Of a stretch of 12,877 nt of DNA, positions 9,597 through 12,877 are shown piece by piece. The stretch is taken from the NCBI RefSeq assembly GCF_006345805.1, contig NW_021826458.1, positions 1-12,877 of the forward strand. The letters run 5' to 3'. Position 1 is the stretch's first letter; each line of letters starts with the position of its first letter. The notes below the pieces were generated by a model. That model had not been told where the DNA came from. It did no database searches and was given only the letters and a program-made list of their open reading frames with translations. A program made the position numbers and the translations under genes. The DNA comes from Octopus sinensis (taxonomy: Eukaryota).

Positions 9597-9805
9597 CACT
9601 CATACAGGAGGCGTAAATTATATATATAATAATACTTTGAGTGTGGATCCTGGTAAAAAGTAAAAGAAATTACCCGATCGAACGACAGGTATTACTTCTA
9701 CTATATATATATATATATATATAGTAAAAGCAATTAAGATTCAAGTGAGTTCTGTTGAATTCACATGAATGCGGTACTTAACTTAGATGCACAACTTAGA
9801 TGTTT

Positions 9806-9895
9806 TTTCGTCTGATGAGTACGGGTCACTTGCATTTGCTGCAATATGTGCAGCCTTAATAAAGCTGGTCTTCGTATGAAACAATTGTACCGAAA
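9806..9895 (+). ncRNA. Type I hammerhead ribozyme candidate with long stem II
   Basis: Stem I TTTCG(9806-9810)/CGAAA(9891-9895) with a mismatch at the core-proximal pair; CTGATGA 9812-9818; stem II GTACG/CGTAT; GAAA 9878-9881; palindromic stem III ACAATTGT; GUA triplet 9887-9889. Confidence 0.7.
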
Positions 9896-9926
9896 TATTG
9901 ATCCATTTTTGTTGCTTTTTTCTTGC

Positions 9927-9957
<31 letters not shown>

Positions 9958-9975
9958 GTGTGTGGTGTGTGTGTA

Positions 9976-10130
9976 TAATATGTGACAATTAGCTGGTTGT
10001 CATAATAAAACTCAGAGTTTAGGATGCCGGGGCTGAAGTTTGCTCCGGCATCTCATTAATTATTAAGACAAAATCACTATGAAAAAAACTTTGGATAAAT
10101 GGAAAGTAAAACTTCGTTCATAGAATCCGC
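9976..10130 (-). mobile_element. Short repeat, copy 1, carrying a core-mutated hammerhead (9999-10069)
   Basis: Homologous to 11472-11651. Minus strand: GTCTTAATAA-TTAATGA-GATGCCGG..CCGGCATC-C-TAAA-CTCTGAG-TT-TTATTATGAC; stems intact, core mutated. Confidence 0.65.
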
Positions 10131-10663
10131 ATAATTACACATATATATACAGGCACATATACACGTACTCACACACAAACACGCGTGTACATATATCTAT
10201 ATACATACTCACACACGCGTGTACATATATACATATATATGTCTACGCATACACGCACATACATACGCATATATACGCATGCACGCATCAATACGCGTGT
10301 CACATGTTTATCAATAAATTCCTCTATTCTATATAATATCGAGGTCCCATTAATTCTTTGTTGTCATATTATTATTTTTAATATATGTATATATATATAT
10401 GTATGTATATACATACATATATATATTGTGCACAATATATATATTTAAAAAACGAGGGTGATGAATTGAATTTTAAAATAATTATGTTCTCTAATTGGCA
10501 ACATTGACTGCAGTAAATTATCTGCTGCAGAACTGTTTCCGGACTTTAGCGCGCCAGAACTTAGACATTTGAAAATAACCCCAATGGAATCGGTTGAACT
10601 GAGCACGTGTCTGGTTTTATATGGACAACTGTTTACTTTTACAAATTAAATTGAATTGGAACG

Positions 10664-10735
10664 ATCGTACTGACGAGTCTACGGACGAATAAATTACGTA
10701 AGCAATTATCGGTAATGACGAAACCGGTCTACGAT
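10664..10735 (+). ncRNA. Type I hammerhead ribozyme with canonical core (minimal stem III)
   Basis: Stem I ATCGTA(10664-10669)/TACGAT(10730-10735) perfect; CTGACGA 10670-10676; stem II GTC/GAC with imperfect extension; GAAA 10720-10723; palindromic ACCGGT stem III; GUC triplet 10727-10729. Confidence 0.85.
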
Positions 10736-11005
10736 TAATTCTGGATTTTTATATATTTTCATCTGTCTTACCCGCTTATGTTCTGGGGTTTGCTGAATTT
10801 CTCTAGAGAACATTCTTTTCTTTGTAGTTAGATCGTATGTGATCTTTTTCTAGCATATTGTTTATCCACCTAGTGGTTATCCCTAAAAATGCACATGTAT
10901 ATATATATACATGTGTATATTCGAAGGCTAAAAAACAATGCGAACGCATTGTGACAAGCGATGTGTACCTACATCTGATGGACTGGTCGGTCACGTGATC
11001 ACGTG

Positions 11006-11305
11006 ATATACATATAAATATATGTATATATATATGTAGATATATGTTTATATATAAATGTATACATATATATGTATGTGTGTATATGTTTTGTTATGTA
11101 TATGTATATATATATATATATATATGTATATATAGGTATATATATGTATATATATATATATATGTATGTATATTTATATATGTATATATGTATGTATTTA
11201 TTTATATATATGTATATGTATATATATATTTATATGTGCATATATATGTATATAAATATGTATATATATGTATATCTATATATGTATATATATGTATATA
11301 TATAT

Positions 11306-11357
<52 letters not shown>

Positions 11358-11465
11358 ATATATATGTATATATATATATATTTATATATATGTATATATA
11401 TATGTATATATATGTATATATATATGTATATATATATGTATATATATATGTGTGTATATATATTT
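11006..11465. repeat. Long complex (TA)n/(TATG)-type microsatellite
   Basis: Directly visible; it generates the Y/I/M-rich ORFs. Confidence 0.97.
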
Positions 11466-11471
11466 GTAATG

Positions 11472-11651
11472 TAATATGTGACAATTGTTCGGCTGTCATA
11501 ATATAAATCTGAGTTTCGGATGTCGAGACGCAAAACTGCTGCGGCATCTCGTCAGTTATTAAGACAAACAAAAATGCTATGAAAATGACCGTGTAATAGA
11601 GGGAAAATCCCGAAAGGGGAGAAAAGAAAAAAGATCGCCCATAGAATTCGC
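11472..11651 (-). mobile_element. Short repeat, copy 2, carrying a hammerhead motif (11495-11565)
   Basis: Minus strand: GTCTTAATAA-CTGACGA-GATGCCG..CGACATC-C-GAAA-CTCAGAT-TT-ATATTATGAC; core boxes intact, stem III and the first stem I pair mutated. Shares ends TAATATGTGACAATT and CATAGAAT.CGC with 9976-10130. Confidence 0.7.
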
Positions 11652-11824
11652 GTATACGCGCATATAGATGCATTCACATGCATTTGCTCCCTCACACGTA
11701 TATAAACCCATACGCGCACAATTATATTCATATACACGTCTAAATACGCATATGCTATATATGCATATGCTCACTCAAACTCGCGTGAACCACATAACTT
11801 CAAACACACACACACACCTATATG

Positions 11825-12334
11825 TTAGTTGGTTAGTTAATTTTTTGGCTCAAAAAGCAAAAAGCAAGGCCATGTAGGGGGCCATGGAGTTATGTACAGG
11901 GTGGTGTTCATGTAAAGAGTTCAGGCCACTTGTGGTAAAGGGAGACTTTGAACCGAGCGGTCGTCGACATCTTCACCATCTCGTCCGGCAGCTTATTCCA
12001 CGGATCCGCAACCCGGACGGAGAAAGCCCCTCTCCTTCGATTGAGATGAAATCGTCGTAGATAGAGCTTTTTGGAATGACCCTGCAGCCGATGCTCTGGA
12101 GCAGGAGTGAAGAACAGCTCTTTCGAGAGGTTATACTTTCCGCTTATGATGTTGTGAGCAAGAATGAGATCACCACGGCGTGGTCGTTTTTCTAGAGAAT
12201 AAAGGTCGAGCGTCTTCAGCCTTTCTTCATAAGACAAATGCTTGAGACCAAGAACGATGCGGGTAGCCAGCTTCTGGACTCTTTCGAGATGCTGTATGTC
12301 TTTGAGGAGATAAGGAGAAGAGGCTTGAATCCCG
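11825..12334 (-). mobile_element. 5'-truncated CR1-clade LINE (ORF2 C-terminus, 3'UTR, (AACT)n tail)
   Basis: GIQASSPYLLKDIQHLERVQKLATR..LSYEERLKTLDLYSLEKRPRRGDLI..RLQGHSKKL..FSVRVADPWNKLP is a typical CR1-group ORF2 end; stop at 11908-11910; tail TTAACTAACCAACTAA; possible TATATG target duplication at 11819-11824 and 12335-12340. Confidence 0.92.
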
Positions 12335-12805
12335 TATATGTATACGTATATGCAACAATACGCATGTACGCATATCCATACTCGCACACACGCACACACA
12401 CACGTATATATACCCATACGCGCAGAATTTTGTTCACTTACTCCCCTATATACGCGCATGCACAAAAATGCAGACTGGAAGGTAATATTGAGAAAAAACA
12501 TGCAAAAATATATAAAGCAATAAAGATGTATAAAAATATATATAAAATTATGTATAAATACATGTAATTATAAAATATATACAGATAAGACGCTTGTACG
12601 TGGACACAATATACAAAACACGTTCTATATGTGGTCTTGGGGGGACAAAAAGTGTAACAAATATTTAGACATGATCCAAAAGTTACTCCATTTACATAAT
12701 ATCGAGGTCTCATTCATTCTTTTGTTGTCATACTATTACTATTCATGTATCATGATAGATCGGTAGGCACTACACACATTTTTCTCTCTCCTTGTTTTTT
12801 TCTGT

Positions 12806-12847
12806 GTCCCTTTCTGTAGAAGCGCGTAGGCTCGAAACGTAAACGAC
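12806..12847 (+). ncRNA. Degenerate minimal hammerhead-like motif in a repeat running off the window end
   Basis: GTCCCTTT-CTGTAGA-A-GCGC-GTAG-GCTC-GAAACGTA-AACGAC: non-canonical CUGUAGA box, mismatch in stem II, palindromic ACGT stem III. Confidence 0.4.
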
Positions 12848-12877
12848 TTTTTCTATTCGTGAGCGTTATACTAATAC

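What the first reader, a model, noticed from the sequence alone, without database searches (positions are those of the whole stretch)
9700..12877. Dense cluster of five hammerhead-like motifs from four unrelated units, on both strands, among microsatellites
Seen: motifs at 9806(+), 9999(-), 10664(+), 11495(-) and 12806(+), with a sixth at 69(+). Apart from the 9999/11495 pair, they share only the catalytic topology and short, mostly palindromic stem III sequences (ACAATTGT, ACTCTGAGT, ACCGGT, ACGT). Most lie in short non-coding units bounded by (TA)n or (CA)n, and the window has no Penelope RT or GIY-YIG ORF. Inference: a diverse set of non-autonomous, microsatellite-targeting, ribozyme-carrying retroelements, probably poorly catalogued in this lineage.
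Basis: partly seen in the sequence, partly recalled or inferred. Interest (0 to 1): 0.72.

Follow-up and report, generated by a model that had tools for sequence, protein, structure and literature searches.

The report
Penelope retroelement ends with hammerhead ribozymes
This stretch is a pile-up, inside TA repeats, of the cut-off ends of three protein-coding Penelope-like jumping genes and two protein-free units likely moved by such genes, each carrying a small RNA motif predicted to cut itself, an arrangement already described in animals including an octopus.

Summary
The six motifs are at the stated places and belong to five unrelated, high-copy repeat families with a conserved minimal type I hammerhead fold. 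Only two window copies (9806, 10664) still pass a strict descriptor. Three families are not non-autonomous: A (9806) and B (9999, 11495) are 3' ends of Hydra-clade Penelope-like elements (PLEs), and D (12806) of a Neptune-like PLE; RT-endonuclease ORFs lie upstream elsewhere in the genome. C (10664; 538 nt) and E (69; 563 nt) are ORF-less, retrozyme-like units. About 80% of fixed 3' ends abut TA-type repeats (background 10%), and 51 of 53 back-to-back insertions pair one short and one long end, as in-vitro PLE priming at two sites would predict. Background is about one such motif per 16 kb, so the cluster is an upper-tail pile-up in a TA-rich spot (about 40 such windows expected by chance). 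Known kind: PLE minimal hammerheads and an octopus Hydra element with the same motif are in print. This scan has reported the same picture, including D's fixed A6U core, on other DNA of this genome. Cleavage and circles are untested.

The parts
9702..9723 (.). (TA)n tract abutting the long end of insertion A
9723..9792 (-). Family A inverted arm: last 70 nt of the optional 3' tail (long end)
   Evidence: 100% to a natural reference copy, L037
9793..9931 (+). Family A short arm: 3' end of a Hydra-clade PLE, ending at the short end before (TA)n
9806..9895 (+). Minimal type I hammerhead of A; canonical core, palindromic stem III ACAAUUGU, predicted GUA site after 9889; two private changes (stem I closing pair, G10.1-U11.1)
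9974..10310 (-). Family B copy 1, short arm (Hydra-clade PLE 3' UTR)
9999..10069 (-). B hammerhead, core broken in this copy (UUAAUGA and UAAA)
10298..10380 (+). Family B copy 1 inverted arm with the 3' tail (long end)
10454..10476 (-). Short inverted piece of family C's tail (long end); weak match, 20 of 23 nt
10473..10900 (+). Family C: ORF-less 538-nt unit, positions 1-434 (short end), then TA repeat
10664..10735 (+). C hammerhead; canonical core, stem III ACCGGU, predicted GUC site after 10729
11006..11463 (.). Long degenerate (TA)n array
11458..11824 (-). Family B copy 2, short arm, 3' part
11495..11565 (-). B hammerhead; CUGACGA and GAAA kept, stem III register broken in this copy
11835..12336 (-). 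Fragment of another dispersed repeat inserted into B copy 2; LINE-like RT tail (label recalled, no Pfam hit)
   Evidence: 91% copy in L049
12337..12672 (-). Family B copy 2, 5' part: last ~14 codons of the GIY-YIG endonuclease and start of the 3' UTR
12680..12743 (+). Family B copy 2 inverted arm with the 3' tail (long end)
12751..12877 (+). Family D: ~195-nt 3' end of a Neptune-like PLE, cut off by the end of the contig
12806..12847 (+). D hammerhead-like motif: family-wide U at core position 6, unpaired A after A9, stem III ACGU; one stem II pair broken in this copy
1..317 (+). Family E: positions 144-465 of an ORF-less 563-nt unit, cut off by the contig start
69..131 (+). E hammerhead; family has canonical core with a C10.1-A11.1 mismatch; decayed in this copy

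Best explanation
The cluster is five insertions (six with the one at 1-317) of Penelope-like retroelement 3' ends in TA microsatellites: three families are truncated copies of ORF-bearing PLEs and two are ORF-less units likely mobilised by such PLEs, and each carries a minimal type I hammerhead that is predicted to cleave only as a dimer. Shown: copy numbers, linkage of A, B and D to RT/GIY-YIG ORFs, clade motifs, TA adjacency, two fixed 3' ends in A, B, C and E, short+long pairing, head-to-tail continuity in C and E. Inferred mechanism: the PLE RT-endonuclease nicks a (TA)n target on both strands and primes reverse transcription at two internal sites 65-115 nt apart, giving a short arm and an inverted long arm; synthesis mostly stops early, so most copies are bare 3' ends. 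Insertions sit in and preserve TA tracts, so repeated targeting piles families up in TA-rich spots. The hammerheads likely process tandem transcripts through their palindromic stem III; most window copies have since decayed.
For: A: hammerhead 1.05-1.3 kb downstream of the endonuclease on the same strand in 19 of 20 loci; parent ORF has RWR, DKT, CxCX5C, CxxC, CxH. B: same linkage in 26 of 30 plus 10 of 10 loci; 717-aa ORFs with RWK, DKT, CxCX5C, CxxC, CxH, the Hydra features of PMC8557442 section 11. D: 6 of 30 5'-extended copies carry RT/EN coding sequence upstream, one with the window's CUGUAGAA core at 91% identity; CX4CxxC linker. C, E: head-to-tail long-end-to-start junctions in 16 and 8 copies; PLE-protein hits only at 2 distinct sites of 58 and 2 of 24 loci. 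219 of 275 fixed ends are followed by TA-type repeat against 9.9% at random; 51 of 53 inverted pairs are short+long, and the window's A, B1, B2 and C copies have this layout. Stems pair in about 85-100% of copies, with compensatory changes in B stem I and A stem III; N7 is the most variable core position in A-D. Two RT start sites, both-strand cleavage and AT-rich targets were shown in vitro for a Poseidon PLE (PMC11167929).
Against: No cleavage, transcript or circle was shown; only contig-level runs, none on record as RNA, were available. No parent was found for C or E, so their mobilisation by Hydra PLEs rests on shared end structure only. D shows one 3' end and no inverted pair in 59 loci, so the two-site model does not cover it, and 0 of the 30 best-scoring D copies reach an ORF. 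D never has the canonical core (0 of 62) and 30 of 114 B copies have U4C, so some families may spread without a working ribozyme. 75 of 133 B match ends fell outside the two sites (many at an internal duplication). Compensatory changes mark subfamilies, so they are few independent events. Clades were assigned by motifs and by eye, without a tree.
Confidence: 0.9

Rival explanations
1. One reading: all units are independent non-autonomous ribozyme retroelements (retrozymes), and the cluster marks a special locus.
For: C and E are ORF-less 538- and 563-nt units with head-to-tail junctions. Most D copies begin at one point, 32 of 40 within 10 nt, which could mean a short master copy. One D tandem array was seen (L104/L105). 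The window has 6 motifs against 0.8 expected.
Against: A, B and D run upstream into RT/GIY-YIG ORFs. About 40 windows with 6 or more (range 4-300), and about 2 with 5 in 3.2 kb (0.2-12), are expected by Poisson chance; the stretch has 94 (TA)4+ tracts per 10 kb against 18.5 in the sample.
Confidence: 0.07
2. The hammerheads are inert passengers: remnants carried in PLE 3' UTRs that play no part in mobilisation (compatible with the best explanation's anatomy).
For: Family-wide core changes in D (A6U) and young B (U4C). HHR cleavage was not needed for PAc insertion in vitro (PMC11167929). min-HHRs cleave weakly even as dimers (PMC4209133). 8 of 9 Xenopus retrozyme dimers did not cleave (bioRxiv 10.64898/2026.07.22.740005). 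Insertion ends do not map to the predicted cleavage sites.
Against: Fold and core are kept across many unrelated families and subfamilies while N7, H17 and loops vary; palindromy of A's stem III is kept by a double change.
Confidence: 0.3
3. Chance motifs or an assembly artefact of a small contig.
For: 4 of 6 window copies fail a strict descriptor; the window is a whole 12.9-kb unplaced contig; no public contig spans the stretch.
Against: Shuffles give 0.01 hits per window and 0-1 per 400 kb; each unit is a multi-copy family with a conserved fold and the same end layout on chromosome-scale contigs.
Confidence: 0.03

Closest known systems
Hydra-clade Penelope-like elements, incl. Hydra-1_Obim (PMC8557442; passages, section 11 and supplement search hits read)
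   Same: Families A and B: single RT + C-terminal GIY-YIG ORF, RWK/RWR, DKT, CxCX5C linker, CxxC and CxH, (TA)n insertion, hammerhead near the 3' end. By eye, B's parent shares long motifs with Hydra-1_Obim, and its hammerhead has the same layout (4-bp stem III with 1-nt loop, GUU site).
   Different: A's ORF carries long Asn-rich insertions and a 1.1-1.3 kb 3' UTR; tails are 65-115 nt against the 30-40 bp described; a young B subfamily has a U4C core. No identity to the published sequence was computed.
Neptune-clade PLEs (PMC8557442; passages and supplement alignment rows seen)
   Same: Family D: C-terminal GIY-YIG, CX4CxxC linker, RT stretches matching the Neptune rows by eye, microsatellite insertion bias.
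   Different: Family-wide A6U hammerhead core; most copies are ~195-nt ends with one preferred 5' point; no tail or inversion seen.
Minimal hammerheads of metazoan PLEs (PMC4209133; parts 1-2 of 4 read)
   Same: Type I, 4-6 bp helix I, palindromic minimal helix III, unpaired nucleotide after A9 (D), mostly single dispersed copies from truncated PLEs, opposite-strand pairs 100-700 bp apart, many families per genome.
   Different: Estimated 110,000-250,000 motif-bearing remnants here, against 2,000-9,000 descriptor hits reported for other animals (methods differ); A6U is not among the variants in the parts read.
Animal non-LTR retrozymes (PMC7229834, passages; bioRxiv 10.64898/2026.07.22.740005, parts 1-3 of 5)
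   Same: C and E: non-coding, AT-rich units of a few hundred bases with one type I hammerhead and head-to-tail continuity.
   Different: Mostly dispersed monomers or one-plus-partial copies with PLE-type two-armed ends, not long arrays; minimal rather than canonical hammerheads; circles not shown.

Membership tests
Type I hammerhead ribozyme | Core CUGANGA, GAAA, UH with three helices in type I order | tested here: met
   Canonical CUGANGA+GAAA in 53 of 59 A, 33 of 53 C, 20 of 27 E, 44 of 114 B copies; stems paired
Type I hammerhead ribozyme | Canonical core in family D (A at position 6) | tested here: not met
   0 of 62 canonical; position 6 is U at 0.98 conservation while N7 varies
Type I hammerhead ribozyme | Site-specific self-cleavage | not testable with these tools
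   No raw RNA reads listed; needs an in vitro assay
PLE minimal hammerhead | Short palindromic helix III favouring a dimer | tested here: met
   No hairpin as monomer; self-duplex -6.4 to -10.0 kcal/mol for A, B, C, E, only -1.7 for D
Hydra-clade PLE (A, B) | RWK and DKT motifs | tested here: met
   B: RWK, DKT; A: RWR, DKT
Hydra-clade PLE (A, B) | CxCX5C linker; CxxC and CxH in a C-terminal GIY-YIG | tested here: met
   GIY-YIG PF01541 E 1.4e-6 for A, 0.0027 (below cut-off) for B
Hydra-clade PLE (A, B) | (TA)n insertion and hammerhead near the 3' end | tested here: met
Hydra-clade PLE (A, B) | Placement in an RT phylogeny | not tested
   No tree with reference elements was built
Neptune-clade PLE (D) | CX2-5CxxC linker and C-terminal GIY-YIG downstream of RT | tested here: met
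   PF01541 E 0.007, below cut-off
Neptune-clade PLE (D) | Clade placement by phylogeny; full-length copy with both pLTRs | not tested
   Longest open stretch seen is 612 aa without the N-terminus
EN+ PLE insertion pattern | 5' truncation, inverted 5' copy, optional tail at one end | tested here: met
   A, B, C, E: 51 of 53 inverted pairs short+long; D: none seen
Non-LTR retrozyme (C, E) | No ORF; head-to-tail units with a type I hammerhead | tested here: met
Non-LTR retrozyme (C, E) | At least two consecutive complete hammerhead units | tested here: inconclusive
   No same-strand pair of hammerheads in 29 C and 24 E loci of ~3 kb; master arrays were not searched for
Non-LTR retrozyme (C, E) | Circular RNA monomers | not testable with these tools
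Non-autonomous element (A, B, D) | Family lacks a coding parent | tested here: not met

The most novel reading that the evidence does not exclude
C and E are true retrozymes copied from 538- and 563-nt RNA circles by Hydra-clade PLE proteins that prime both nicked strands at two fixed sites, and D's A6U core is a working natural hammerhead variant. This genome, with roughly 170,000 hammerhead remnants, would then be a natural mutational scan that shows whether PLEs need their ribozyme.
Probability: 0.3. Interest if true: 0.6.

Novelty: new member of a known kind. Interest (0 to 1): 0.25.

Why it matters
The cluster as such is ordinary for this genome. Its use is as a compact sample of how Penelope-like elements insert. 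The near-strict short+long pairing of inverted arms is a genomic readout of the two priming sites seen in vitro for another clade. Sister families with canonical, A6U and U4C cores give ready-made pairs for the open question of what PLE hammerheads do.

Tried and rejected
Rfam scan at E<=5: no hammerhead family; microsatellite noise only. PF01541 search of the genome: the 30 fetched loci were mostly other PLE families and gave no parent for the window families. I first called the parents of A and B Neptune; rejected after reading the Hydra definition. Pfam found no family for the 717-aa and 779-aa parent ORFs. D as a purely non-autonomous unit with a fixed 5' end: rejected once extended copies led to an ORF; 5 of the 11 hits covered only the read-through, probably non-coding end of the query and were dropped, leaving 6 of 30. 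Parents for C and E: none found in 58 and 24 loci; the genome was not scanned exhaustively. Expression: no RNA holder listed; laying four contig sets showed family sequence but no ends or circle joints. A possible seventh motif at 2832 had no match among 409 loci held. Lunse et al. 2017 on PLE hammerhead variants could not be opened, so whether A6U is in print is open; 'A6U' did not occur in PMC3088659, which reports A6C (slow) and U4C. Paper searches for hammerhead with octopus or cephalopod gave PMC8557442 as the only relevant listing. Supplements of the bioRxiv preprint were not seen. The background sample is 40 x 10 kb at round positions on chromosome-scale contigs; profiles were partly built from it, one of the 25 hits (L223) is doubtful, and unplaced contigs were not sampled.
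Full report
OBSERVATION. The six motifs are at the stated coordinates. A strict type I descriptor (CUGANGA, stem II, GAAA, short stem III, UH, stem I) finds 2 of them, at 9812 and 10670, against 0.01 per window in 100 block-wise dinucleotide shuffles. The other four have changes in the core or stems. Rfam lists no hammerhead among 107 matches at E<=5. The window is a whole 12.9-kb contig of a 2.72-Gb genome; I infer an octopus from the likeness of one family to a published octopus element.

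FIVE FAMILIES. Each unit was searched in the own genome: B (9999, 11495) 1753 first-look candidates, A (9806) 1978, C (10664) 1659, D (12806) 932, E (69) 2320 (lower bounds, 40 scored each). The families share no nucleotide similarity. Among aligned copies the canonical CUGANGA+GAAA is present in 53 of 59 A, 44 of 114 B, 33 of 53 C, 0 of 62 D and 20 of 27 E. Stem pairs hold in about 85-100% of copies, apart from family-wide mismatches (one internal pair in B stem II, C10.1-A11.1 and an internal loop in E, the outer part of D stem I). B stem I has two compensatory pairs (A-U 54 to G-C 41; U-A 53 to A-U 33). A's stem III changes from ACAAUUGU to ACGAUCGU and stays palindromic (6 copies). N7 is the least conserved core position in A-D. 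These changes mark subfamilies, so they are few independent events, and the copies were selected for likeness to the window. Stem III cannot fold alone but pairs with a second copy, as described for PLE minimal hammerheads (PMC4209133, parts 1-2 read; review PMC6765202, passages).

CODING PARENTS. Walking upstream from B reached a GIY-YIG endonuclease. A search with it gave 150 scored matches; the B hammerhead lay downstream on the same strand in 26 of 30 loci and 10 of 10 longer stretches, two with 717-aa RT-EN ORFs, one of them with a second hammerhead-bearing repeat in front of the ORF. For A the hammerhead lay 1.05-1.3 kb downstream of the endonuclease in 19 of 20 loci. Both parents carry the marks of the Hydra clade as defined in PMC8557442 section 11: RWK (RWR in A), DKT, a CxCX5C linker, CxxC and CxH. 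The supplement lists Hydra-1_Obim, (TA)n-inserting, with a hammerhead of B's layout (compared by eye). For D, none of the 30 best copies reached an ORF, but 6 of 30 copies chosen for a 5' extension carry RT/EN coding sequence upstream, one with the window's exact core at 91% identity. The parent has a CX4CxxC linker and matches Neptune rows of that supplement by eye. The window's second B copy still holds about 14 codons of the endonuclease at 12672-12631 and is split by a 500-base fragment of another repeat. So A, B and D are 5'-truncated PLE copies.

NON-CODING UNITS. C is a 538-nt and E a 563-nt unit. The long end runs straight into the unit start in 16 C and 8 E copies, so the template was longer than one unit: a tandem transcript or a circle. 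PLE-protein hits occur at only 2 distinct sites of 58 C loci and 2 of 24 E loci, at no fixed distance. No same-strand pair of hammerheads was seen in 29 C and 24 E loci. They resemble animal retrozymes (PMC7229834, passages; bioRxiv 10.64898/2026.07.22.740005, parts 1-3 of 5) but do not meet the tandem criterion in the loci seen.

ENDS AND TARGET. A, B, C and E each have two fixed 3' ends 65-115 nt apart: 68 of 69 A match ends, 78 of 85 C, 38 of 42 E, but only 58 of 133 B, many of the rest lying at an internal duplication. D has one end (57 of 71). Leaving out head-to-tail joints, 219 of 275 fixed ends are followed by TA-type repeat, against 9.9% of random positions. Of 53 back-to-back pairs, 51 join a short and a long end (A 23 of 23, B 9 of 9, C 12 of 13, E 7 of 8); D gave none. 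The window's A, B1, B2 and C copies have the same layout, C with only a weak 23-nt inverted piece. A tail at one end of inverted insertions is described in PMC8557442. PMC11167929 showed in vitro that a Poseidon PLE cuts both strands of AT-rich DNA, starts reverse transcription at two internal sites that bound the tail, and does not need hammerhead cleavage (passages). Applying this to Hydra elements is my inference.

IS THE CLUSTER SPECIAL? In 40 sampled 10-kb stretches, the five family profiles hit 7 times, a family-blind descriptor 10 times (shuffles 0-1), and profiles of all families met so far 25 times, at most 3 per stretch. That is one motif per 16 kb, or 110,000-250,000 in the genome. 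The window's 6 compare with 0.8 expected; P(>=6) is 1.9e-4, so about 40 such windows (4-300) are expected, and about 2 (0.2-12) with 5 in 3.2 kb. The stretch has five times the sample's density of (TA)4+ tracts, and other-family hits are about twice as frequent beside family copies (15 in 448 kb). The cluster is a real local excess that shared TA targeting and the size of the scan explain.

VARIANT CORES. D has U at position 6 throughout while N7 takes all four letters; sister subfamilies have canonical or U4C cores. A young B subfamily has U4C in 30 of 114 copies. PMC3088659 reports low activity for A6C and reduced activity for U4C, and does not mention A6U (passages). The paper on PLE hammerhead variants was not available, so novelty in print is open. 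Activity is untested.

EXPRESSION. No run on record as RNA holds the stretch; contigs of four runs carry family sequence but cannot show ends or circles.

EARLIER SCAN NOTES. Notes on other DNA of this genome describe the same pile-ups, the short+long rule and the A6U family. They gave me the Hydra lead and the in-vitro paper; I tested those claims on the families here. They are not independent support.

VERDICT. Observation confirmed; interpretation partly supported. New members of a known kind: minimal hammerheads in the 3' ends of Hydra- and Neptune-type PLEs, plus two retrozyme-like units. Interest 0.25.

Noticed in passing
window 11835-12336 (-): Fragment of another dispersed repeat, LINE-like RT C-terminus by recall, nested inside B copy 2; no Pfam hit, a 91% copy in L049.
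   Followed up: partly
window 8670-8966 (+): Pif1 helicase 2B-domain relic (PF21530, E 4e-16), probably from a Helitron (label recalled).
   Followed up: partly
window 1647-1985 (-): Tc1/mariner transposase relic (PF01498, E 1e-8); similar-looking relics at about 5700-6450 and 6750-7760 were not tested.
   Followed up: partly
window 4268-4458 and 5040-5230; 3792-4016 and 5406-5630: Two nested inverted repeat pairs, 98% and 86% complementary, forming a 1.8-kb fold-back of SINE-like repeats.
   Followed up: no
window 322-372 (+): 3' piece of a D-related family without its hammerhead, directly after the E copy.
   Followed up: partly
window 2826-2865 (+): Possible decayed seventh motif (CUGAUGA then a 3-bp G-C hairpin, no GAAA); no match in 409 loci held.
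   Followed up: partly
window 10677-10692: Family C has a second GAC-GAA(A) inside loop II that can close an alternative short stem II, perhaps a switch or an internal duplication.
   Followed up: no
L276, L277, L278: Young B subfamily with many near-identical copies, intact 717-aa ORFs and a U4C hammerhead core.
   Followed up: partly
L104/L105 (G000:C9521): Tandem array of at least 10 D units spaced by TA/CA repeats.
   Followed up: no
L336, L340: A-family parent ORFs carry long Asn-rich insertions between RT and endonuclease.
   Followed up: no
L206-L245 and other loci: At least 17 further hammerhead clusters beyond A-E among 135 descriptor hits in 1.05 Mb, many with palindromic stem III.
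   Followed up: partly
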